Of a DNA stretch of 64,000 bases, positions 6,848 through 42,650 are shown one piece after another. Under the pieces are notes generated by a model. The model saw only the letters and a list, made by a program, of their open reading frames with translations, searched no databases and was not told the origin of the DNA. The position numbers and the translations under genes were made by a program. The stretch's first letter is position 1, and each line of letters starts with the position of its first letter. The stretch is from Candidatus Woesearchaeota archaeon (lineage in GTDB: Archaea > Nanobdellota > Nanobdellia > Woesearchaeales > SKGA01), in assembly GCA_046546105.1 (NCBI GenBank), contig JBKGYN010000002.1:10913-74912 (forward strand), in the 5' to 3' direction.

Positions 6848-8752
6848 ATGGCGGGCAGCAAGCTTTCTTTTCCGGTTATCCTCTTGATAACGATAAATAG
6901 TATTATGGGTACTGGGATCTTTTTCTTGCCGGCTGTCGGTGCTCGTGAAGCGGGATTGTTCGCTATCATCTCGTGGATTATCATGGGCTTTATAGCTGTT
7001 TATTTCAGCATGATCTTCGGCGAACTGGTCAGTCGCTATCCTAAAGAAGGTGGTGTCTACGAATACGCTAAAGAAGCCTTCGGCTTCTTCCCGAGCTTCC
7101 TGCTTGGTTGGATGACGCTCATCACTGCTAACATCACCATTGCCATGCTCATGGTCGGTGCTATCAAGTACGTCGGCTCTAACTTGAATAATATTTTCAT
7201 CGCTGGTCTTAGCATCTTGTTCGTCTTGATCTTCAATTTCATCGCTTTCAAGGGTTTGAGAACCGGTAAAGTGATGCTTCTGACTTTTGCCGGTTTGACC
7301 TTGACTACCGTCGGTGGTATTCTGATTCCTGGTCTTGCCGCTTTCAATCCTTCTAATTTCACTGGTTGGCTTTCTCACAGCGCCTTTTCCTCGCTTGATG
7401 CAGGTTTTGCAGGTCTGTTCAGTGGCGCTGCCATAGTTTTGGGGACTGTTTTTTTCATTGCTGAGACTTTTTTCGGTTGGGAGACGACCACCTTCCTGGC
7501 TGAACAGGTTCGTAACCCTAAGAAGATAATGCCTAAGGCCATGGTCGTAGGGACTGTTCTTATCGCTGTCATCTCTTTTCTCTTCGTCGTCGCAAGCAAG
7601 AGTATCTTGCACTGGAGCGAGCTCGCTTCTTCGATAACTCCTTTAGCCGACCTTGCAAGCACTATCTATGGTCCTTGGATTGTTCCCGTGTATAGTATCA
7701 TGGTCTATCTTGCTATCATAGGTAGTGTCGCTGGCTGGATTGTCGCCGCGCCGAACCTGCTTGTTGCCTTGTCTAAGGATCGTCTCTTCCCTCCTTCCTT
7801 TGCCCAGCCTCATCCAAAAACCGGCACTCCTTACAAAGCGATCATCTTCCAGACGATCGTGACTTCCGGTCTTATTGTCGTCGGTGCAGGTAGTTATGAG
7901 ACCCTCCTTCATCTCCTTGTTCCCATGCTCTTGATAATGTATGCGAGTGTGGTGTTGAGCTTGATTCTCATCCGGAGAAAACACCCTTCTTTTGACGGTT
8001 ACATCGCTCCTGGAGGCCGTTTCGGTCCTTCCATCCTCATAATGGTCACTCTCGGTCTGATTGCGATGTGGGTTACCAACCAGCCTGATGCAGTGCACAC
8101 GCTCCAGATAATCGCTGGTTTTGTCATCATCGGCATCCCTGTCTATCTCCTGATGAACTTCCATTACAATCCTCATGCGACTGTCTCTTTTCATAACAAG
8201 ACTGCTGAACTCTCCCGGCTTTTCGAGCGTCTCTTCCTCCCTTTGAAGATCCGTCGCCGACTCCTCGCCGGTCTGTCTGAACGTGAGCGCGTGCTCTTTC
8301 TCGGTGCTGGTTCTGGCGTTCTTATCAAGGAACTTCCTCATCCTGACGAGCACATCACCGTCCTTGAACATTCTGAAGTCCTTGCCAAACAGCTTTCGAA
8401 GCGTTTCCCTCACGTCCGTGTCATTTATGACAATCACGCAATCTCTCGGGTCCATCCTTCCATCGAGACTGCGGACGTTCTCATCAGCGTGAGTTTTCTC
8501 AGTCACATCCAGGACATCCCTTCCTATCTCAAGCACATCCACAGCGTCCTTCCTGAGAACGCCAAAGTCCGTTTCTTTGATTATGCTGATTTTTACAGGG
8601 TCATCCCTAACAGCATCCCTTCTGTTTCAAAGCTTCAGGAGATGTTTCGTGAGCACGGTTTTGCTGTGAAAGTGGAGAAGATCAAAGGCGTCTTATGGTC
8701 CTACTTGATCATTGAAGGTATCAAATCTGACTCTGCGGGTTTCTACATCTGA
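6848..8752 (+). CDS. APC-family amino-acid permease fused to a C-terminal class-I SAM methyltransferase-like domain
   Basis: ORF 6827..8752 (TTG) with probable ATG at 6848; about 12 TM helices with typical APC N-terminus (INSIMGTGIFFLPA, GELVSRYPKEGGVYEYAKEAFG); the last about 190 aa carry VLFLGAGSG (motif I), VLEHSE (post-I acidic) and ADVLISVSFLSH (motif II). Confidence 0.7.
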   Translation: MAGSKLSFPVILLITINSIMGTGIFFLPAVGAREAGLFAIISWIIMGFIAVYFSMIFGELVSRYPKEGGVYEYAKEAFGFFPSFLLGWMTLITANITIAMLMVGAIKYVGSNLNNIFIAGLSILFVLIFNFIAFKGLRTGKVMLLTFAGLTLTTVGGILIPGLAAFNPSNFTGWLSHSAFSSLDAGFAGLFSGAAIVLGTVFFIAETFFGWETTTFLAEQVRNPKKIMPKAMVVGTVLIAVISFLFVVASKSILHWSELASSITPLADLASTIYGPWIVPVYSIMVYLAIIGSVAGWIVAAPNLLVALSKDRLFPPSFAQPHPKTGTPYKAIIFQTIVTSGLIVVGAGSYETLLHLLVPMLLIMYASVVLSLILIRRKHPSFDGYIAPGGRFGPSILIMVTLGLIAMWVTNQPDAVHTLQIIAGFVIIGIPVYLLMNFHYNPHATVSFHNKTAELSRLFERLFLPLKIRRRLLAGLSERERVLFLGAGSGVLIKELPHPDEHITVLEHSEVLAKQLSKRFPHVRVIYDNHAISRVHPSIETADVLISVSFLSHIQDIPSYLKHIHSVLPENAKVRFFDYADFYRVIPNSIPSVSKLQEMFREHGFAVKVEKIKGVLWSYLIIEGIKSDSAGFYI

Positions 8753-8943
8753 TTCTGGTGGGTGGGGGTGATATCCTCATTTGCTTTTGGTGCCTGTCTT
8801 TCTCGAAACTTCTGCTGCATATTGACTGGGACGAAAAGATGCCAAATGGGGACGCTGGGATTCCACGAGCTGATTCGTCCAGCTGTACCGGGGTGCGCCT
8901 CGCTACTGCTCAGCAGCACGAATTACATCATTGATTGTGCTTA

Positions 8944-9115
8944 GAGAGGGTGCCAACACTTTTGTGTTGAGCATGTTCAAATACCAGCTACTTTTCAAGA
9001 AGAACCTGGGGACGCTGGGATTCCCTTGAACTTTGTGAGAGGGTGCCAACACTTTTGTGTTGAGCATGTTCAAATACCAGCTACTTTTCAAGAAGAACCT
9101 GGGGACGCTGGGATT
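8944..9115. repeat. tandem direct repeat (93-bp period, 79-bp perfect copies at 8944-9022 and 9037-9115), each ending with the 3'-terminal 15 nt of tRNA-Trp
   Basis: The 79-bp string gagagggtgccaacacttttgtgttgagcatgttcaaataccagctacttttcaagaagaacctggggacgctgggatt occurs twice with identical spelling; copy 2 overlaps the tRNA-Trp 3' end; a third copy of ggggacgctgggattcc lies at about 8851-8867. Confidence 0.85.
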
Positions 9116-9235
9116 TGAACCCAGATCAGCCGGTATCTTCTGAATAGATTGATAATCATCGCCTTCATAGCCATGAAGACTCATCGCTCCATCCAACTGG
9201 AGCCGGCTATTCTGCCGGATTATACTACGCCCCCG
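9101..9235 (-). tRNA. tRNA-Trp (anticodon CCA) with an approximately 61-nt intron after position 37
   Basis: Minus-strand read: acceptor GGGGGCG/CGTCCCC, T8A9, T-arm CTGGG-TTCAAAT-CCCAG, anticodon stem GCCGG/CCGGC with loop CTCCAG interrupted by an insert; the intron start TTGGATGGAGC pairs back onto GCTCCA, as expected for a bulge-helix-bulge splice site. Coordinates within 1-2 nt. Confidence 0.7.
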
Positions 9236-16017: not shown

Positions 16018-16214
16018 ATGATGATATTAAGGATCCTTCGTTGCCATAGTCCCTGCAGGAGATCTGTTGCGACTTTGCAGGGGATACTGACACTTTCACT
16101 GGGTGCTTCTTCCTTATTTAAGTTTTGTTATTTCTGGTCTTCGGTGCCCACTTGTTATTGTATTGTGTTTGCAGCACAATGTTTTTAAATACCTCTCACT
16201 GCAGACAACCTCAT

Positions 16215-18812
16215 ATGGAAGATATTGTTGTAGGGCGCAGTAAATCTGACTTGAAAAAATACGGGATGAAAGGCGCTATCTTCGTTGGTAAGCATTACAT
16301 CTCTATGGGTACCACTACAACGCTTTCTAACAATGTATATATGGACGTTGCCGGCGCTCACGTCGTTTTCATCTGCGGCAAGCGTGGCGGCGGAAAATGT
16401 CTGACTGGCGATACTCTTATCTCTCTTGCTGACGGTCGGGAAGTCCCTATTGCAGATCTTGAGCACATCGACCAGGATATTGTCGCTCTGAACGATGATT
16501 TGAAAGTGCAGCATGCTGGCAAGACTGAGTTTTTCAAACGCGAAGTCTCGAAATTACTCAACATCCGGCTACGTAGTGGCAAGGAATTGCGTTTAACGCC
16601 GGAACATCCTTTACTGACCGTTTCAGGTTGGAATGAAGCATCTGCTTTGAAAGAAGGCTCGCGTATAGCGACTCCTCGAAAATTGCCTTCATTTGGAGAA
16701 CACGACCTTCCTGAAAACGAAGTGAAAATCCTTGCTTATTTGCTTGCTGAAGGGCACTTATCCAATGGGTTTATCCTGTTCTCGAATACTGATTCGCTTA
16801 TCATGGCTGATTTCAGGAGCGCTCTTCAATCTTTTGACGCATCCTTAGATGTTAAACAGCATGGTGAAGGGTGTGTTCGGGTCATATCTTCTGGTGTGAG
16901 ACGAACAATTGTGAACTCCTCACGTAACGAAAAGGGACAATTCGGTAAAGGAGTCGTTTTCGATAAGAAATCTTCATTGCGCAAATATCTCGAGAGTGCA
17001 GGATTATATGGGTACAAGGCAGATCAACGGGTTCTTCCTGATCGTATCTTCCAGTTGCCCAAGCGCAAACTGGCATTATTCCTCAATCGTCTTTTTAGCT
17101 GTGATGGTACTATCTATCGTGATGGTAACAAGGACTCTTGGATAGTGAGCTATTCTTCAGCTTCTAAGAAGATGATCTATCAGATTCAGAATCTGTTATT
17201 GAAATTCGGTTTGCTTTCCCGCGTTCGTAAGAAGCAACAGAACGGGTTTACCAGTTATGAACTGGGTCTTCATGAAATCCATGTCCATTGGTTCCTTCAG
17301 GAAATTGGTTTTTTCGCTGATAAGAAACATCGCCAAGAACAAGCTCTTCGCAGCACTAAACAGCATAATCCTAATATTGATACGATTCCTCGAGAAATCT
17401 GGGACACGTATCGTCCGAAAAATTGGTCTGAAGTGGGTAAAGAACTCGGTTATAAGACTCCTAAATCTGCACGATCCTCGATCAGGCATTCTCCCTCTCG
17501 CCAGAAACTCGCTTGTATAGCGCGGTCAGATGGTAGTGTTGAAACAGGATTGCTTGCCGAATCCGATATCTTCTGGGATGAGATTGTTGACATCACTGAA
17601 GAGAACGGTACGTTCACCGTATATGATATCAGTGTTCCCGAGCATCATAATTTTGTTGCAAATGGCGTTATCGTCCATAACAGCTACACGATGGGTGTTA
17701 TCGCTGAAGGCTTTCACCTTCTTGAAAAGGCTATCAAGGAGAATCTTTCTGTCATCCTTCTGGACACGATGGGTATCTATTGGACGATGAAATACCCGAA
17801 CCACCAGGATAAAGAGCTTCTTGAAAAATGGGGTCTCAAGCCGCAATCGATTCCTGTCAAGATCTTCACGCCGGAGAAATACTATCACATCTACAAGAAG
17901 CAAGGCATTCCTACTGACGTTCCGTTCACGATGAATCCTGCAGACCTGGATCCTGACGATTGGTGTAATGCCTTCAGGGTCGATAAGTACAGCTCCCGAG
18001 GCATCCTCATCAACCGGACCATCCTTGATCTCAAGAAATCCGGTGAGAACTTCCAGATTCACGATATCATCAAGCGTATCAAGGAAGATCAGGATTCTGA
18101 GAAAGAGGATCGTGACGCTGTCATTTCCATGTTTCTCATGGCTGATAATTGGGGTGTCTTCTCGGAGCACGGCACGCCCCTTCACGAACTGGCTAAAGGC
18201 GGCCAGATCACCGTGCTTGACGTTTCCTGCTACGCGACCATGCCTGGTGGTTGGGATGTCAAATCGCTCATGGTAGGCCTTGTCGGTCAGCGTCTGTTCA
18301 TCGAGAGGATGGAATACCGTAAGGGCGAGGAATATGAGTCTGTCAGCAGCGCCACTAACTTCTTCAGTTCAGATGCTAAGAAAACGCAGGACATGCCTCT
18401 GGTGTGGCTTGTTATTGACGAGGCTCATGAATTCCTTCCTCGAAACGGTAAGGTCGCTTCTACCGATGCCCTTGTCACGATCATGCGCGAAGGTCGTCAG
18501 CCGGGTATTTCCCTCATTCTCGCGACCCAGCAGCCCGGTAAGATCCACACGGATGTCATGACGCAGTCTGACACTGTCCTCTCTCACCGGATCACTGCGA
18601 AGATGGATGTTGATGCTCTCGGGATGCTCATGCAGTCCTACATGCGTGAAGGCTTGACTGGTGAGCTTGACAAGCTTCCTCGTGAAAAAGGTGCTGGTGT
18701 GCTTTTCGATGATAATAATGAGAAGATGTATCCTATCAGGATTCGCCCTCGTTTCACCTGGCACGGAGGTTCGAGCCCTACAGCCGTCCCGGAGGATAAA
18801 GAAGAGCGATGA
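16215..18812 (+). CDS. HerA/FtsK-superfamily (DUF87-like) ATPase interrupted by an intein in the P-loop
   Basis: ORF 16125..18812 with probable ATG at 16215; extein Walker A GKRGGGK|S is split by the intein; Walker B VWLVIDEAHEF; LILATQQPGKIH (HerA/VirB4-type TQxP motif). Extein about 467 aa. Confidence 0.75.
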   Translation: MEDIVVGRSKSDLKKYGMKGAIFVGKHYISMGTTTTLSNNVYMDVAGAHVVFICGKRGGGKCLTGDTLISLADGREVPIADLEHIDQDIVALNDDLKVQHAGKTEFFKREVSKLLNIRLRSGKELRLTPEHPLLTVSGWNEASALKEGSRIATPRKLPSFGEHDLPENEVKILAYLLAEGHLSNGFILFSNTDSLIMADFRSALQSFDASLDVKQHGEGCVRVISSGVRRTIVNSSRNEKGQFGKGVVFDKKSSLRKYLESAGLYGYKADQRVLPDRIFQLPKRKLALFLNRLFSCDGTIYRDGNKDSWIVSYSSASKKMIYQIQNLLLKFGLLSRVRKKQQNGFTSYELGLHEIHVHWFLQEIGFFADKKHRQEQALRSTKQHNPNIDTIPREIWDTYRPKNWSEVGKELGYKTPKSARSSIRHSPSRQKLACIARSDGSVETGLLAESDIFWDEIVDITEENGTFTVYDISVPEHHNFVANGVIVHNSYTMGVIAEGFHLLEKAIKENLSVILLDTMGIYWTMKYPNHQDKELLEKWGLKPQSIPVKIFTPEKYYHIYKKQGIPTDVPFTMNPADLDPDDWCNAFRVDKYSSRGILINRTILDLKKSGENFQIHDIIKRIKEDQDSEKEDRDAVISMFLMADNWGVFSEHGTPLHELAKGGQITVLDVSCYATMPGGWDVKSLMVGLVGQRLFIERMEYRKGEEYESVSSATNFFSSDAKKTQDMPLVWLVIDEAHEFLPRNGKVASTDALVTIMREGRQPGISLILATQQPGKIHTDVMTQSDTVLSHRITAKMDVDALGMLMQSYMREGLTGELDKLPREKGAGVLFDDNNEKMYPIRIRPRFTWHGGSSPTAVPEDKEER
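16398..17681 (+). mobile_element. intein (Hint domain with LAGLIDADG homing-endonuclease domain), 428 aa
   Basis: Begins Cys (CLTGDTLISLADGREV) immediately after GGGK and ends VHN followed by Ser (+1 nucleophile); two LAGLIDADG-like motifs (LAYLLAEGHL, LNRLFSCDGTIY) in the middle. Confidence 0.75.
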
Positions 18813-28577: not shown

Positions 28578-28640
28578 GATGTGGGTAAGTTTTGTTGTTG
28601 TTTAAATATGTATTTGTCTAGAAAAATAGAAAATAAAAGT

Positions 28641-28800
28641 GAGCCCGCGGAGACTTTCATGCTGGCGCATTCGGTCGTTATCGACCTTGCTCGCCAACTA
28701 TTTGAACTCCGGACCACACGATTTCTTTCACTGACGTTCGGAACATTACCGGGCCGTCAATGTATCAGTCGTGCACTCCACCAGGCTAAGCTACGGGCTC
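28641..28800 (-). tRNA. probable tRNA (anticodon GAT, Ile) carrying two insertions: an approximately 40-nt intron in the anticodon loop and an approximately 47-nt insertion between T-loop and 3' T-stem
   Basis: Minus strand: GAGCCCG-TA-GCTT-AGCCTGGTG-GAGT-G-CACGA-CTGATA-[insert]-A-TCGTG-TGGTC-CGGAG-TTCAAAT-[insert]-CTCCG-CGGGCTC; all stems pair; the D-arm is a near copy of that of the adjacent tRNA-Asn; lies 6 nt downstream of tRNA-Asn on the same strand. Confidence 0.5.
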
Positions 28801-32631: not shown

Positions 32632-34590
32632 ATGGTGGTCCGGGCTAATTTCAGAACTCTTGTCTTATTGCTTGTTTTCCTGCTTAGTGTGCAGACTGGC
32701 TTTATAGTCTATCACGCGGTTGAAGTCATCTCGCCTGATATTCATGCCCGGGCGAGCGCGGGTATGTTCTCGCTATGTCTCAACTATCAGCCTGAATTCA
32801 ACTTCACCTGCAACACTTCTATGCGCCAGAACCATGATTATCATTGCCAGCTCAATTATTCTGACCCTGACAATGATTCTGTAACTTTTTTCTATGAGAA
32901 CCTCTCTGGATTTTTTGAAGCTGAGATCACCGATGATGGTGTCCTGACTGCAAATCCTGATCAGGAGATGGTAGGTGAGAGGGACGTGCTCATCGGTGTA
33001 GTTGATGAGAAGAATTGCTCAAACAGTGAAGCTGCTGAAAACGTGACTTTCGAGATTGAAAATGTCAACGACCCTCCTGAATACTATCGTCAGATAAGTG
33101 ATCTCGAATGGTCTCTTGACGAGACTTTCAGGGGTATCTTTCTCAAGGATTATTTCAGGGATCCCGATGGTGACCCGCTCTCCTACTCGCATTCTTTCTC
33201 ATCATCACAGTTTTCTGCCGACATCATATCCAGTTCTGAAGTTATTTTTTCCGCTGATGAGTGTGGCGAGGGTTATGTGACCTTCACTGCGTCAGATCCA
33301 TATAATGAGACTGCGCAAAGCCATATCATCAAAATCAATGTTCCTTGCGAGGAGCCTGAATCTTCATCCGGCGGTTCTGCCGGATCTACTTCCCCTGAAG
33401 AGTGCATTCCGGAATGGCGGTGCAAGGATTGGAGCGAGTGCTATCCTAACGGCACGCAAAAACGGCAATGTACAGATATCCATGGTTGTAGTGAGGATTA
33501 CAAGCGGAATTTCTGGAGGGAGTGCGAATACATTCCTCAATGTGAAAACGGTATTCAGGATCCTGACGAAGAAGGTGTTGATTGCGGTGGTCCTTGTCCT
33601 CCTTGTGAGACATGCGATGATGGTATCCTGAATAACCAAGAGGAAGAAGTCGATTGCGGCGGTCCGAACTGCCCTCCTTGTAAGAATTGTTCTGATGGTA
33701 TTCAGAACTATGGTGAGACTGGTGTTGATTGCGGTGGTCCTTGTCCTCCTTGTGAGACATGTGATGATGGTATCCAGAATCAGGGCGAGACTGGTGTTGA
33801 TTGCGGTGGTCCTTGTCCTCCTTGTCCTGATACTGAGACTCCCGCGCCTGTTGATGATCGTTCGTGGCTCACTGCAGTCCTCATCCCTATAGTGCTTGGT
33901 CTCACGGGCCTTGCTGTCATTTACCGGCTGTTCCGGAGGAGTATTCACGCTTTTGCTGCGAGGATGTGGTGGTATTTCACCAGTAAGGTGCCCAAACAGG
34001 TGCTTCTCACGGAAAATCAGAAGTCGTATTTGTTCAACGAACTTGATCGACTTCTTGGTGAGCAGCATGGCTCTTCTGACCTGGACGAATTCCAGGATGA
34101 TCTGGCTATCCTTTTCAGGAAGTTCTACTCATATCTGATTGATGAAGCCTATGATCTTGAAAATGCCAAAGAGAAGATCGTGCAGTTGAAGACGGTCAAG
34201 GAAGTGAAAAAATTCCTCGTCACGGGATACTCTGTCACGCTTGGTATTGAAAAGACCAAGAAGATGTCTCGGGAGATGCTTGATGTCCATGCTGAACTCC
34301 TGCGTGAGCTTGTGATTTCTCTAAGTAGGGTTGATCGTGAAGAGATTGCAAGAGTTCTTGATGAAAAGACTCCTGCTGAAAAACCAACGCTCTCTAACGT
34401 GCTTGGCTTCTTGTATAACAGCATTCTTGCCTTGCAGTTCAGCGAGATCGAGATCTCCAAAGAGAAATATCTTAAAGCCTTGTATCTCTATGAAGCCCTT
34501 CCTGTAAGTGATCAGGAGAACGTGTATTCGACGCTTCATCTGACATTCGGTCTTATCAGCTACGTCTCATCTTACGCTTCCAAGAAATGA
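32632..34590 (+). CDS. cell-surface protein: cadherin-like domain, four Cys-rich tandem repeats (CGGPCPPC), TM helix, cytoplasmic alpha-helical domain
   Basis: Signal peptide; VNDPPEY cadherin-like motif; 4 x about 31-aa units C-x2-C-x-DGI-x-N-x-(G/E)E-x-(G/E)VDCGGP(N)CPPC; TM LTAVLIPIVLGLTGLAVIY; about 220-aa cytoplasmic tail. Confidence 0.65.
   Translation: MVVRANFRTLVLLLVFLLSVQTGFIVYHAVEVISPDIHARASAGMFSLCLNYQPEFNFTCNTSMRQNHDYHCQLNYSDPDNDSVTFFYENLSGFFEAEITDDGVLTANPDQEMVGERDVLIGVVDEKNCSNSEAAENVTFEIENVNDPPEYYRQISDLEWSLDETFRGIFLKDYFRDPDGDPLSYSHSFSSSQFSADIISSSEVIFSADECGEGYVTFTASDPYNETAQSHIIKINVPCEEPESSSGGSAGSTSPEECIPEWRCKDWSECYPNGTQKRQCTDIHGCSEDYKRNFWRECEYIPQCENGIQDPDEEGVDCGGPCPPCETCDDGILNNQEEEVDCGGPNCPPCKNCSDGIQNYGETGVDCGGPCPPCETCDDGIQNQGETGVDCGGPCPPCPDTETPAPVDDRSWLTAVLIPIVLGLTGLAVIYRLFRRSIHAFAARMWWYFTSKVPKQVLLTENQKSYLFNELDRLLGEQHGSSDLDEFQDDLAILFRKFYSYLIDEAYDLENAKEKIVQLKTVKEVKKFLVTGYSVTLGIEKTKKMSREMLDVHAELLRELVISLSRVDREEIARVLDEKTPAEKPTLSNVLGFLYNSILALQFSEIEISKEKYLKALYLYEALPVSDQENVYSTLHLTFGLISYVSSYASKK
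33560..33840. repeat. near-identical approximately 93-bp tandem repeats (4 units) encoding the Cys-rich modules
   Basis: gttgattgcggtggtccttgtcctccttgtgagacatg(c/t)gatgatggtatcc recurs; units 3 and 4 are almost identical at the nucleotide level. Confidence 0.8.
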
Positions 34591-41581: not shown

Positions 41582-42307
41582 TCACCTGTCAATTGATGGT
41601 GGGAGTATGCTTCCTCTGAAAAGCAATGTGTGTAATGCAATCAGCATCATTGCATGTTCATCGCTACCTTGCTGCATCGCCGCTTCCAATCCTTTCTCAA
41701 TAGGTGTTACCTTGATATTTGCATCGTAGCCTTTCAAACTCACCGTACCTGATCTCACCTGGCATGTGTATTGCTGATTATTATATGTGAACTTGATATC
41801 TTCTGCCTTGGTCTTCATTCCCGGTCTTTGCTTTATGTTGCTTGAAACGATTTCATTTCCATTCTTATTGATCGTTATTGTCGGTCCGGTAGTCGCATCG
41901 GTAATCTTTTGTTTCATAGAAACAGTCCATGCACCTTTCAGTTCATATGAATATGTTGTCTTGTGCAAAGTTGTCTTGCATATTGCTTGCACTTCTTTAT
42001 CATTGAGATACGCATAGATTTTTTTCGGGAACCTGAGTCCTTCATGCTTGCTTATGCTGAAATTACTATAGAGTGCGAAATGGTTGTGTTGTTTTGAAAG
42101 CTCTGCTCTTAATGTTGTTCTTTTTTGTTTCTCCTGTTTTCGTGCTACCACGATCATGGCTGCAAACCCGATAACTAATAAGATGATGCTTGGTACTAGC
42201 AGCATATTGTTTCCGGAAATTCCTGTATATATCAGTGATATGACTGCTGCAATGATGCTGATGATAGTAATGACAGATCCTGTTGTTGGTTTTTGCTTCA
42301 TTCTCAT
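41582..42307 (-). CDS. hypothetical membrane-anchored protein
   Basis: N-terminal TM segments (VITIISIIAAVISLIYTGI, LLVPSIILLVIGFAAMIVV) then a soluble domain. Confidence 0.4.
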   Translation of the reverse strand: MRMKQKPTTGSVITIISIIAAVISLIYTGISGNNMLLVPSIILLVIGFAAMIVVARKQEKQKRTTLRAELSKQHNHFALYSNFSISKHEGLRFPKKIYAYLNDKEVQAICKTTLHKTTYSYELKGAWTVSMKQKITDATTGPTITINKNGNEIVSSNIKQRPGMKTKAEDIKFTYNNQQYTCQVRSGTVSLKGYDANIKVTPIEKGLEAAMQQGSDEHAMMLIALHTLLFRGSILPPSIDR

Positions 42308-42358: not shown

Positions 42359-42578
42359 CGTCTCTGGTGGGAGTTGAAGGTTTGTCGTCAGACAGGCTTG
42401 AGAAAAGCTGAGCTTTGACCCAATCGCGAAGCGAGTTCAACGGGACTCAACTTCAAAGAAGTTGAAAGAGCCTCTGGCGAGAGTTGAAGGTTTGTCGTCA
42501 GACAGGCTTGAGAAAAGCTGAGCTTTGACCCAATCGCGAAGCGAGTTCAACGGGACTCAACTTCAAAGAAGTTGAAAG
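42359..42578. repeat. tandem direct repeat, 110-bp unit x2 (3 mismatches), each unit beginning with a copy of the 3' end of tRNA-Thr
   Basis: Units at 42359-42468 and 42469-42578; the third occurrence of cctctggcgagagttgaa is the genuine tRNA-Thr 3' end at 42579. Confidence 0.8.
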
Positions 42579-42650
42579 AGCCTCTGGCGAGAGTTGAACT
42601 CGCGACCTCTACCTTACCAAGGTAGCGCTCTACCACTGAGCTACAGAGGC
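42579..42650 (-). tRNA. tRNA-Thr (anticodon GGT)
   Basis: GCCTCTG-TA-GCTC-AGTGGTA-GAGC-G-CTACC-TTGGTAA-GGTAG-AGGTC-GCGAG-TTCAACT-CTCGC-CAGAGGC-T. Confidence 0.85.

What the first reader, a model, noticed from the sequence alone, without database searches (positions are those of the whole stretch)
42359..42650. Same architecture at tRNA-Thr: 110-bp tandem units each starting with the tRNA 3'-terminal 18-20 nt
Two unrelated tRNAs in the same window carry the same arrangement, in which the tRNA 3' end plus about 80-90 nt of flank is tandemly reiterated downstream. This points to a common mechanism rather than chance. Candidates are recurrent att-site usage by one family of integrative elements, or an unknown tRNA-linked repeat.
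Basis: seen in the sequence. Interest (0 to 1): 0.6.

Follow-up and report, generated by a model that had tools for sequence, protein, structure and literature searches.

The report
Repeated tRNA-tail cassettes in Woesearchaeota
Behind two tRNA genes of this tiny (DPANN) archaeon lies a gene-less, hairpin-rich cassette that ends in a copy of the tRNA's last 16-19 bases and is repeated in tandem, and related species keep the same cassette at the same tRNAs, so it is a conserved tRNA-linked element rather than an ordinary prophage scar, although the enzyme behind it is unknown.

Summary
tRNA-Thr(GGU) (42579-42650, minus strand) is followed by two identical 110-nt units. Each unit is the tRNA's last 19 nt (T-loop through the last acceptor base) plus a 91-nt spacer. 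A third, degenerate 19-nt copy follows. tRNA-Trp (9100-9234) has the same layout.

The window is chromosomal DNA of a Woesearchaeota MAG. I found no integrase, transposase or Cas1 among about 47 ORFs, and no virus or plasmid match.

Five related lineages carry homologous cassettes at the same two tRNAs, in 1 to at least 3 copies. The evidence for a conserved, dynamic element:
- Internal tRNA-end copies are identical to the tRNA; terminal copies are degenerate.
- The copies share lineage-specific tRNA substitutions.
- One strain's single unit is a chimera of a relative's two units.
- Four spacer hairpins covary.
- Nearly every cassette has an inverted copy of its own tRNA's T-arm beside a hairpin.
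- The whole module is flipped in some lineages.

Best reading (confidence about 0.45): this is the footprint of a T-loop-targeted DNA insertion that rebuilds the tRNA end, like an att site. A selectively retained structured spacer was then amplified and trimmed by unequal homologous recombination.

Rivals are a functional co-transcribed trailer RNA and an inert scar. It is a new variant of a known kind.

The parts
42579..42650 (-). tRNA-Thr(GGU), intron-less here; all five relatives carry a 40-43-nt canonical intron
   Evidence: ARAGORN; Rfam 75 bits; sequence; relatives
42580..42598 (-). Copy 1 of the 19-nt tRNA tail, TTCAACTCTCGCCAGAGGC (T-loop, T-stem 3' strand, acceptor 3' strand), inside the tRNA
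42489..42579 (-). Spacer U, unit 1 (91 nt, non-coding). Contains hairpin H1 (42576-42556), an inverted T-arm block plus hairpin GTTGAACTCGCTTCGCGA (42551-42534), hairpin H2 (42526-42514) and hairpin H3 (42507-42490)
42470..42488 (-). Copy 2 of the 19-nt tRNA tail, identical to the tRNA
42379..42469 (-). Spacer U, unit 2, 91/91 identical to unit 1
42360..42378 (-). Terminal, degenerate tail copy TTCAACTCCCACCAGAGAC (3 mismatches that would break T-stem and acceptor pairing); followed by a T6 run and the promoter of the next gene
41582..42307 (-). 241-aa two-transmembrane protein just distal to the array (weak SLATT_6 / PADLOC 2TM-effector similarity). This slot holds unrelated genes or nothing in relatives
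9100..9234 (-). tRNA-Trp(CCA) with an intron of about 60 nt; its last 16 nt (9115-9100), AATCCCAGCGTCCCCA, are the repeated tail
   Evidence: Rfam
9007..9099 (-). Trp unit 1: 77-nt spacer (inverted T-loop ATTTGAAC at 9075-9068; hairpin CAACAC-AAAA-GTGTTG at 9062-9047; GGCACCCTCTC) plus the second 16-nt tail copy (9022-9007)
8847..9006 (-). Trp unit 2 (long): the same 63-nt core, then an 81-nt extra segment, then the third 16-nt tail copy (8862-8847). The extra segment includes motif X (8866-8903, read on the + strand), shared with the leader of tRNA-Thr in relative L008

Best explanation
Each locus is a tRNA gene carrying a small array of non-coding cassettes. [quoted passage not shown]

Proposed history and mechanism:

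1. Insertion (inferred). DNA was inserted at the T-loop of the tRNA gene by a site-specific system. The incoming DNA brought its own T-loop-to-3'-end segment, so the tRNA was rebuilt and the resident tail was displaced downstream. This is the same logic as attL/attR at tRNA genes. The displaced terminal copy is no longer under selection and decays.

2. Array dynamics (shown by comparison). The array expands, contracts and is homogenised with the tRNA by unequal homologous recombination between units and tail copies.

3. Spacer under selection (shown that structure is conserved; what reads it is inferred). The spacer is not junk. Four hairpins, and an inverted copy of the cognate T-arm placed at or within 5 nt of the 5' foot of a hairpin, are kept by selection. 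This is most simply explained as the recognition structure for whatever recombinase or transposase acts on the cassette. That enzyme would be encoded elsewhere, making the cassette a non-autonomous mini-element. A role in the tRNA transcript is also possible.
For: Boundaries. In both tRNAs and in all lineages the copy starts inside the T-loop (Thr at T54; Trp at A58/59). [quoted passage not shown]

Age gradient. Internal copies are identical to the tRNA. Terminal copies are mutated or truncated in every array.

Concerted evolution.
- L008's tRNA-Thr has T-loop TTCAATT and its distal copy has TTCAATA. Both carry T at the sixth T-loop base, where all the other lineages have C.
- In L024, tRNA-Trp changed an acceptor base pair, and both downstream copies carry the same C-to-T change.

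Recombination. L011's single unit matches L007 unit 1 at 8 of 8 informative sites before the conserved block, and L007 unit 2 at 4 of 5 sites after it.

Copy number. It ranges from 1 to at least 3 among strains and species.

Selection on the spacer.
- An invariant 13-mer, ACTCGCTTCGCGA, is present in lineages whose neighbouring DHH protein is only 61% identical.
- Across the 24 pairs of four hairpins, 95.6% of cells are paired versus 84.6% in shuffles (0/500 shuffles reach this). Eight pairs show changes on both sides (1/500). With the 3' partners slid by 1-3 columns (slid-register controls), only 34-44% of cells pair.
- The Trp hairpin covaries: CAACAC/GTGTTG versus CGATAC/GTATCG.

Inverted T-arm copy. 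It lies 25-32 nt after a tail copy. For Thr it is 10-11 nt (p <= 0.003) in all units except L009, which keeps only 7 nt (p about 0.07). For Trp it is 8-11 nt (p 0.001-0.025).

Signs of mobile or mosaic DNA at these sites.
- A 32-nt motif at 91% identity (E 3e-4) is shared between the window's Trp long unit and the L008 Thr leader. In both cases it abuts a partial tRNA copy.
- Unrelated genes sit just beyond the array in three lineages and none in three others.
- The whole module is flipped relative to the same neighbours in L006 and L008 (Thr) and in L024 (Trp).
Against: No recombinase of any kind was found in the 64-kb window or among the genes called on the relatives' loci.

No autonomous parent element, virus or plasmid carries the spacer or an attP-like junction.

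No empty site was seen within the clade, so insertion was never caught in the act.

The Thr and Trp spacers are not homologous by nhmmer or blastn, so 'one family of elements' is not shown.

A double-stranded circle of about 110 bp is a poor substrate for tyrosine recombinases (my own knowledge).

In L024 and L027, T-rich terminator-like runs follow each tail copy. Hairpins fold on both strands, so an RNA role is not excluded.

All data come from metagenome assemblies, several with N gaps inside the arrays.
Confidence: 0.45

Rival explanations
1. Functional trailer RNA. The spacer is co-transcribed with the tRNA and acts as a structured RNA. Its antisense T-arm segment might pair with the pre-tRNA to time maturation, or it might be released as a small RNA or sponge. 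The tail copies would be incidental, or would serve as processing or termination punctuation.
For: Covarying hairpins. Sense-strand folds are more stable than shuffles in several lineages (z -3.0 to -3.75 in L006, L007 unit 2 and L008). In the window there is no oligo-T between the tRNA and the final copy, and a T6 run follows the terminal copy. The module is retained at the same tRNA across the clade and no empty sites were seen. The MFE fold pairs tRNA positions 47-59 with the inverted block.
Against: This does not explain why a T-loop-to-3'-end copy of the tRNA bounds every unit at two different tRNAs. No Rfam family matches. The fold of the whole region is not significant (z -1.09). The window's own unit has z -0.67. 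The antisense strand folds about as well, and non-canonical cells slightly favour the antisense strand (5 C.A versus 2 G.U on the sense strand). In L024 and L027, long T-runs directly follow the tRNA, which should terminate transcription before the spacer.
Confidence: 0.2
2. Inert scar plus slippage. An ordinary integrated virus or plasmid was almost entirely deleted long ago, leaving attL-remnant-attR. The tandem copies are recent replication slippage or unequal crossover, and the conservation reflects hitch-hiking next to a tRNA.
For: The boundaries are att-like. The terminal copy is degenerate. The two window units are 91/91 identical, so the duplication is recent. Unequal crossover is demonstrated. 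tRNA fragments left by integration are common in archaea (PMC9897764, PMC3293823).
Against: Compensatory changes in four hairpins, and an invariant 13-mer across lineages with 61% identity in the neighbouring protein, are not expected of neutral DNA. The same design, an inverted cognate T-arm next to a hairpin, evolved at two tRNAs whose spacers are unrelated. A remnant flanked by direct repeats should often be lost, yet it is present in all 5-6 lineages at both loci.
Confidence: 0.2
3. Alternative 3' exon or nascent T-loop intron. The first tail plus spacer could be spliced out so that the tRNA body joins a downstream tail, as in archaeal tRNAs with T-loop introns or split tRNAs.
For: The lineage tolerates non-canonical introns: tRNA-Ile in this window has one between the T-loop and the T-stem. 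The inverted block can pair with tRNA positions 49-59 across the would-be splice site.
Against: The first tail is intact in every lineage, so splicing would give nothing new. Terminal copies are mutated so that they cannot pair with the tRNA body. By inspection there is no bulge-helix-bulge motif at the unit boundaries: the sequence 5' of each copy (AAACC) is not complementary to what follows the T-loop.
Confidence: 0.04
4. Assembly artefact. The tandem copies were created or mis-joined by the assembler.
For: Short-read contigs of the same species break inside the tRNA or the unit. One assembly shows a single unit. Three relatives have N gaps inside arrays.
Against: The spacer-tail-spacer junction is seen independently in another assembly, L005. 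The base architecture (tRNA, spacer, degenerate tail) is present in every assembly, including single-unit ones. L007's two units differ in sequence, so they cannot be a duplicated read path.
Confidence: 0.02

Closest known systems
attL/attR duplications made by tyrosine integrases at tRNA genes (archaeal SSV- and pNOB8-type elements, bacterial genomic islands), with tandem accretion and gene-less att-flanked remnants (CIMEs; PMC5704250)
   Same: The direct repeat is the tRNA segment from a loop to the 3' end. The tRNA is rebuilt. The distal copy decays. Several units can stack at one tRNA. Gene-less att-flanked remnants are known.
   Different: The units are only 87-160 nt (Thr and Trp units together) and have no genes. 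No integrase lies nearby. The spacer is conserved with covarying hairpins across species. The module is fixed in the clade rather than polymorphic.
Casposon insertion at the 3' end of tRNA genes, with tandem casposon arrays separated by target-site duplications (PMC5137440, PMC4779613)
   Same: The target is defined by the T-psi-C-loop region of a tRNA gene. A short target segment is duplicated at each insertion. New insertions would go in on the tRNA side, giving arrays with the oldest unit distal. The logic resembles CRISPR arrays, including a degenerate last repeat.
   Different: No Cas1 gene was found. There are no terminal inverted repeats in any unit. Here the duplicated segment (16-19 nt) is the T-loop-to-3'-end part of the tRNA itself. 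In the casposon case a 15-bp segment is duplicated, and it lies next to an 18-bp stretch covering the T-psi-C loop and 3' end of the tRNA gene.
IS200/IS605-type elements and their miniature hairpin derivatives (PATEs); recalled from my own knowledge
   Same: Small non-coding units built of subterminal hairpins. A short sequence at the 5' foot of a hairpin is complementary to the site where the element begins, which is guide-to-cleavage-site logic. They can be mobilised in trans as single strands.
   Different: No TnpA or TnpB was found. The complementarity here is 8-11 nt at about 45 nt distance, against 4 nt at about 19 nt in IS608. Those elements do not duplicate or replace target sequence.
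Heterogeneous tRNA-Thr(GGU) locus of Caldiarchaeum subterraneum (PMC3293823)
   Same: The same tRNA species. There is a 5' fragment of the tRNA upstream of an intron-bearing gene, as in relatives L006, L008 and L009. That paper attributes the arrangement to a mobile element that integrates into tRNA genes.
   Different: There the fragment and the gene are separated by a 1.8-kb element encoding a recombinase. Here the intervening DNA is 70-110 nt and gene-less, and the main feature is 3' copies in tandem.
Functional tRNA 3' trailers such as the E. coli 3'ETS-leuZ sRNA sponge (my own knowledge)
   Same: A conserved, structured sequence directly 3' of a tRNA that could act as RNA.
   Different: No partial tRNA copies or tandem units are involved there. 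No transcription data are available here.

Membership tests
Integrated element with a tyrosine integrase at a tRNA gene | The direct repeats are the tRNA segment from a loop to the 3' end, and the tRNA is left intact | tested here: met
   Thr: 19 nt from T54 to the last acceptor base. Trp: 16-17 nt from A58/59 to the discriminator. Seen in all lineages.
Integrated element with a tyrosine integrase at a tRNA gene | An integrase gene lies next to one att site | tested here: not met
   Pfam scans of about 47 window ORFs found no Phage_integrase or other recombinase. None appears among the genes called on relatives' loci. The rest of the genome was not available.
Integrated element with a tyrosine integrase at a tRNA gene | Element genes lie between attL and attR | tested here: not met
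   The spacers are 64-144 nt (Thr 68-138, Trp 64-144), with no conserved ORF and with indels that are not multiples of three.
Integrated element with a tyrosine integrase at a tRNA gene | Occupied and empty sites both occur among relatives | tested here: inconclusive
   All 5-6 lineages of the clade are occupied at both tRNAs. A more distant lineage (L036) has tRNA-Thr(GGU) without a cassette, but at another locus.
Casposon or mini-casposon | Cas1 (casposase) gene and terminal inverted repeats | tested here: not met
   No Cas1 in the Pfam scans. Comparing the first 30 nt with the reverse complement of the last 30 nt gives no significant match in 11 units (p 0.2-1.0).
Casposon or mini-casposon | A 14-15-bp target-site duplication next to the tRNA T-psi-C-loop segment | tested here: inconclusive
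   The duplication here is 16-19 nt and starts in the T-loop. The logic is similar but the geometry differs (PMC5137440).
CRISPR array | Identical repeats separating unique spacers, with a leader and cas genes | tested here: not met
   The 'spacers' are identical or homologous to each other. No cas genes were found. Only the degenerate terminal repeat resembles CRISPR.
IS200/IS605-derived miniature element (PATE) | Subterminal hairpins with a guide at the hairpin foot complementary to the cleavage or target site | tested here: inconclusive
   Hairpins are present and covary. The inverted T-loop lies 0-5 nt 5' of a hairpin. Distances and lengths differ from IS608.
IS200/IS605-derived miniature element (PATE) | A cognate Y1 transposase (TnpA) in the genome, and dispersed copies | tested here: not met
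   No TnpA or TnpB in the window. An nhmmer profile of the Thr spacer finds it only in tRNA-Thr trailers, with no dispersed copies in about 300 kb of clade DNA. The whole genome could not be tested.
Known RNA family (Rfam 15) | A match to a curated covariance model | tested here: not met
   Only the tRNAs match, at gathering threshold and at E <= 1.
Split or T-loop-intron tRNA | A bulge-helix-bulge motif at the exon-intron boundaries, and an incomplete upstream gene | tested here: not met
   The upstream tRNA is complete in all lineages. No BHB was seen at the unit borders by inspection; no dedicated BHB search was run.

The most novel reading that the evidence does not exclude
The cassette may be a self-propagating, non-autonomous single-strand DNA element. 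It would find tRNA genes by base-pairing: it carries an antisense copy of the cognate T-arm at or near the 5' foot of a hairpin (the IS200/IS605 'guide' logic, but 8-11 nt long). It inserts at the T-loop and supplies a replacement tRNA 3' end, so each insertion leaves the old tail behind. That would make it a new class of guide-directed, tRNA-homing mini-element in DPANN archaea. The recurrent flipping of the whole tRNA module and the 5' tRNA copies in relatives would be by-products of the same enzyme.
Probability: 0.15. Interest if true: 0.85.

Novelty: new variant of a known kind. Interest (0 to 1): 0.6.

Why it matters
Partial tRNA copies are normally read as scars of viruses and plasmids. 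Here the 'scar' is a tiny, gene-less cassette. It is conserved for structure, carries an antisense copy of the tRNA's own T-arm, is fixed at two tRNAs across a Woesearchaeal clade, and is still recombining.

If an enzyme drives it, this points to an undescribed tRNA-targeting insertion system in DPANN archaea, whose mobile elements are almost unknown. It would also give a concrete route by which tRNA genes acquire fragments, T-loop insertions and rearrangements. That bears on the old question of how disrupted archaeal tRNA genes (introns, split genes) arise.

If it acts as RNA, it is a new conserved tRNA-trailer RNA.

On the practical side, these arrays break short-read assemblies at tRNA genes and can mislead tRNA annotation.

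Tried and rejected
- Protein-guided scan of GTDB species genomes with the neighbouring DHH protein: no relative found. The single-protein peptide patterns were too specific.
- Pattern scan for tRNA tail plus conserved block. In genome contigs it returned only three real loci (L011, L012 = L009, L015 = L006) plus three chance bacterial hits. In JGI metagenomes it returned only chance hits.
- IMG/VR scans for the Thr tail-plus-block pattern, the Trp block, and the bare 19-nt and 16-nt tails: nothing, or chance matches inside unrelated viral genes.
- blastn against GenBank phages and PLSDB plasmids: no match.
- Rfam at gathering threshold and at E <= 1: nothing except the tRNAs.
- Whole-region RNA fold: not better than shuffles (z -1.09).
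- Sense versus antisense folds of seven units: no clear strand preference.
- Terminal inverted repeats: none. MITE and casposon-like ends rejected.
- Box C/D and H/ACA guide readings of the antisense T-arm block: rejected by inspection. There is no C box and no ACA at the right distance, and the D-box spacing is wrong.
- PBS-like (retroelement primer site) reading: rejected. No copy includes CCA or its complement.
- Tail copy folding into a tRNA-like minihelix: rejected. The T-stem 5' strand is replaced by AAACC.
- Homology between the Thr and Trp spacers: not detected, apart from motif X.
- The three small genes beside the arrays are unrelated to each other and have only weak domain hits.
- A more distant lineage (L036) turned out not to share the locus.
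Full report
**Observation**

The finding is accurate. ARAGORN and Rfam place tRNA-Thr(GGU) at 42579-42650 on the minus strand. Tandem Repeats Finder reports 42362-42598, period 110, 2.2 copies, and the repeat finder gives the same two 110-nt copies.

On the tRNA strand the order is:
- the tRNA, whose last 19 nt are TTCAACTCTCGCCAGAGGC (T-loop, T-stem 3' strand, acceptor 3' strand)
- a 91-nt spacer ('U')
- the same 19-mer
- the same 91-mer (91/91 identical)
- a third 19-mer with three mismatches
- a T6 run and the promoter of a 241-aa gene

The 'other tRNA' is an intron-bearing tRNA-Trp(CCA) at 9100-9234 (Rfam; missed by ARAGORN). Its last 16 nt recur twice downstream with a 93-nt period.

tRNA-Asn and an adjacent two-intron tRNA-Ile have no such copies. 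The arrangement is therefore at 2 of the 4 tRNAs seen in the window.

**Context**

The neighbouring proteins identify a Woesearchaeota (Nanobdellota, DPANN) MAG. Pfam scans of about 47 ORFs show ordinary chromosomal genes: DHH phosphoesterase, ThiF, an XPB-like helicase, MoxR/VWA, a proteasomal ATPase, eRF1, Trm5, Dus and surface Ig-repeat proteins. There is no integrase, transposase or Cas1. Base composition is even across the window.

**Relatives at the tRNA-Thr locus**

Exact-protein look-ups and one pattern scan retrieved the same locus from other assemblies.

*Same species*
- L004 has tRNA-U-degenerate tail, a single unit.
- L005 ends inside a second unit.
- Logan short-read contigs break in the tRNA or the unit.

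*Other lineages* (identity of the neighbouring DHH protein in brackets)
- L006 (83%): one U of 130 nt, then a truncated 14-nt tail.
- L007 (74%): two diverged units, then a degenerate tail.
- L011 (close to L007): one unit.
- L008 (71%): one 138-nt U plus a tail with 1-2 mismatches.
- L009 (61%): at least two 68-nt units across an N gap, then a 49-nt extension and a third tail.

A still more distant lineage (L036, 58%) has tRNA-Thr(GGU) elsewhere and without any cassette. The module is therefore clade-specific.

All relatives have a canonical intron in tRNA-Thr. The window lineage has lost it.

**Relatives at the tRNA-Trp locus**

Gene order (permease-methyltransferase, then tRNA-Trp, then a 210-aa protein) is conserved.
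- L022 (same species): only the long unit.
- L023 (the L006 genome): at least three 94-nt units across an N gap.
- L024, L025 and L026 (the L011 genome and close relatives): tRNA, an 84-nt unit, a tail, an unrelated 64-nt piece, then a truncated tail.
- L027 (the L009 genome, same contig as its Thr locus): a 91-nt spacer plus a 17-nt tail.

**Evidence for turnover by homologous recombination**

1. Internal tails are identical to the tRNA. The terminal tail is always mutated or truncated.
2. The tails track lineage-specific tRNA changes.
   - L008's T-loop variant is shared by its distal copy.
   - L024's compensatory acceptor-stem change (G7A/C66T) is carried by both downstream copies.
3. L011's single unit is a chimera. 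It matches L007 unit 1 at 8 of 8 informative sites before the conserved block, and L007 unit 2 at 4 of 5 sites after it. This is what unequal crossover within the block would produce.
4. Features of U (a 45-nt insert, the two H2 types) are distributed mosaically among lineages. This fits birth-and-death of units in arrays.

**The spacer is under selection**

The alignment of Thr units (A1) shows four features:
- a hairpin H1 right after the tRNA, whose sequence differs between lineages while its pairing is kept
- an invariant 13-mer, ACTCGCTTCGCGA (hairpin TCGC-TTC-GCGA)
- hairpin H2 (AAAGC/GCTTT, AGAAATC/GATTTCT or AGAAATA/TATTTCT)
- hairpin H3 just before the tail (GTTTGAC/GTCAAAC or GTTTGTC/GACAAA)

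I made a spliced alignment of these four hairpins (A4) and counted pairs:
- 95.6% of cells pair, against 84.6% in shuffles (0/500 shuffles reach this).
- Eight of 24 pairs have changes on both sides (1/500).
- The covariation score is 0.268 against 0.091 (0/500).
- With the 3' partners slid by 1-3 columns (slid-register controls), only 34-44% of cells pair.

Caveats: there are only seven related sequences, I chose the hairpins myself, and local palindromes fold on either strand and in DNA. Individual folds are moderately better than shuffles on both strands. Non-canonical cells (5 C.A against 2 G.U on the sense strand) do not settle the strand.

The Trp units share GCTGGTATTTGAACATGCT, then a covarying hairpin (CAACAC/GTGTTG against CGATAC/GTATCG), then GGCACCCTCTC.

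**An antisense T-arm in every cassette**

The Thr block begins GTTGAACTCGC, the reverse complement of tRNA positions 49-59. Trp units contain ATTTGAAC or GGGATTTGAAC, the reverse complement of their own T-loop with or without the stem.

These matches are longer than in shuffled units:
- Thr: 10-11 nt, p <= 0.003, except L009, which keeps only 7 nt (p about 0.07).
- Trp: 8-11 nt, p 0.001-0.025.

They lie 25-32 nt after a tail copy and 0-5 nt 5' of a hairpin. In L027 the inverted piece follows the tail copy rather than the tRNA.

Each spacer matches its own tRNA better than the other one. The two spacer families are otherwise not homologous (nhmmer; blastn).

**Other signs of rearrangement**
- The whole module (promoter, tRNA, array) is inverted relative to the same flanking genes in L006 and L008 (Thr) and in L024 (Trp). 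It is not inverted at the sister locus of the same genomes.
- L006, L008 and L009 also have an 18-nt copy of the tRNA-Thr 5' end 70-110 nt upstream, just after a promoter-like motif. The copy is degenerate in L009.
- A motif, GAGCTGATTC(C)GT(C/T)CAGCTGT(A/C)CCGGGGTGCG, is shared between the window's long Trp unit (antisense, abutting the distal tail) and the L008 Thr leader (abutting the 5' copy). The match is 29/32 with E 3e-4.
- Just beyond the Thr array lie unrelated single genes in three lineages, and none in three others. In the window it is a 241-aa two-TM protein with weak SLATT/2TM-effector similarity. In L009 it is a 171-aa protein with weak adenylyltransferase-like (Aminoglyc_resit) and DUF7277 hits. 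In L008 it is a 144-aa protein.

**Searches for a parent element or known family**

All were negative:
- IMG/VR
- GenBank phages and PLSDB plasmids
- JGI metagenomes (chance hits only)
- Rfam
- terminal inverted repeats

**Interpretation**

*Shown*
- The architecture is real.
- It is shared by two unrelated tRNAs and conserved in a clade.
- It varies in copy number and recombines by unequal crossover.
- It is homogenised with the tRNA.
- The spacer is structurally constrained and carries an antisense T-arm.

*Inferred*
- The base state (tRNA, spacer, displaced tail) arose by insertion at the T-loop of DNA that carried a replacement T-loop-to-3'-end segment. [quoted passage not shown] That is the signature of att-type recombination at tRNA genes, and is close to the casposon/CRISPR target-duplication logic (PMC5137440).
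- Simple slippage cannot create the base state. It would leave only the microhomology, not a 16-19-nt tail, at the distal end.
- The spacer's conserved hairpins and antisense T-arm are most economically read as what a trans-acting enzyme recognises, making the cassette a non-autonomous mini-element. An RNA role in the tRNA precursor remains a serious rival. An inert-scar reading is hard to square with the covariation and with retention in every lineage.

**Comparison and novelty**

The arrangement works like att-site accretion at tRNA genes and like tandem casposon or CRISPR arrays. It fails the membership tests for all of them: no integrase, Cas1 or cas genes, no cargo, no TIRs, and no unique spacers.

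It resembles IS200/IS605 miniature elements in its hairpin-plus-guide design. It lacks a transposase and dispersed copies in the DNA available.

The Caldiarchaeum tRNA-Thr(GGU) locus (PMC3293823) is the nearest published parallel for the 5' fragment and intron heterogeneity. tRNA fragments left by integration are known in Thermococcaceae (PMC9897764). I found no description of gene-less, structured, conserved tail-copy cassettes, and a 2026 survey of 208 complete Nanobdellota genomes does not mention them.

I rate it a new variant of a known kind.

**Limits**

All sequences are metagenome assemblies, so copy numbers are uncertain. Only about 300 kb of clade DNA could be examined. No transcription data and no whole genomes were available.

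Noticed in passing
window 28640-28800 (-): A tRNA-Ile(GAU) with two introns lies directly 3' of tRNA-Asn. One intron of about 40 nt follows position 37. A second of 47 nt lies between the T-loop and the T-stem 3' strand. ARAGORN and Rfam both missed it; I read it by eye. No tail copies lie downstream.
   Followed up: partly
window about 9137-9197 (-), intron of tRNA-Trp: The intron carries GATGAG and GATGAT (C/C'-box-like) and CAGA. It resembles the box C/D guide RNA known from euryarchaeal tRNA-Trp introns (my own knowledge). The intron is conserved in relatives L023, L024 and L027.
   Followed up: no
window 42579-42650 versus L006-L009 and L011: tRNA-Thr(GGU) has no intron in the window lineage, while all five related lineages carry a 40-43-nt canonical intron. 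The intron was lost recently at a locus that is otherwise rearranging.
   Followed up: partly
L006 11576-11620, L008 3165-3205, L009 about 7095-7115: An 18-nt copy of the tRNA-Thr 5' end (positions 1-18; degenerate in L009) lies 70-110 nt upstream of the gene. It is preceded by the promoter-like motif that abuts the gene itself in the window. It is the 5' counterpart of the 3' tail copies.
   Followed up: partly
window 8866-8903 (+) and L008 3165-3200 (-): A motif of about 37 nt (a hairpin AGCTG...CAGCT followed by CCGGGGTGCG) is shared between the long tRNA-Trp unit and the tRNA-Thr leader of a relative. In both places it abuts a partial tRNA copy (29/32, E 3e-4). It is the only sequence link between the two loci.
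   Followed up: partly
L006 and L008 (Thr); L024, L025 and L026 (Trp): The whole promoter-tRNA-array module is inverted relative to the same flanking genes. This happened independently at the two loci and in different lineages. L006 has inverted copies of about 14 nt, AAAACAAAARAAT, at both edges.
   Followed up: partly
window 41582-42307 (-); L009 7696-8211; L008 2346-2780: Unrelated small genes occupy the slot just beyond the tRNA-Thr array: a two-TM SLATT-like protein, a protein with weak adenylyltransferase-like hits, and an unknown protein. Three other lineages have no gene there. This looks like a small variable-gene hotspot.
   Followed up: partly
window 16125-18812 (+): An 895-aa ORF contains an intein with a LAGLIDADG homing-endonuclease domain (Pfam Intein_splicing 2e-27, LAGLIDADG_3 8e-18). 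The host protein was not identified.
   Followed up: no
window 33574-33825 (+): A coding tandem repeat of 72-75 nt (Cys-rich units, about 3.5 copies) lies inside a 652-aa Ig-domain (Big_9) surface protein at 32632-34590.
   Followed up: no
L011 (CAZRUJ010000021.1) and L024 (CAZRUJ010000026.1): The public record labels this MAG 'uncultured Methanosarcinales archaeon'. Its DHH-tRNA-Thr and tRNA-Trp loci are near-identical to those of the Nanoarchaeota/Nanobdellota MAG behind L007. The taxonomic label is probably wrong, or the bin is contaminated.
   Followed up: no
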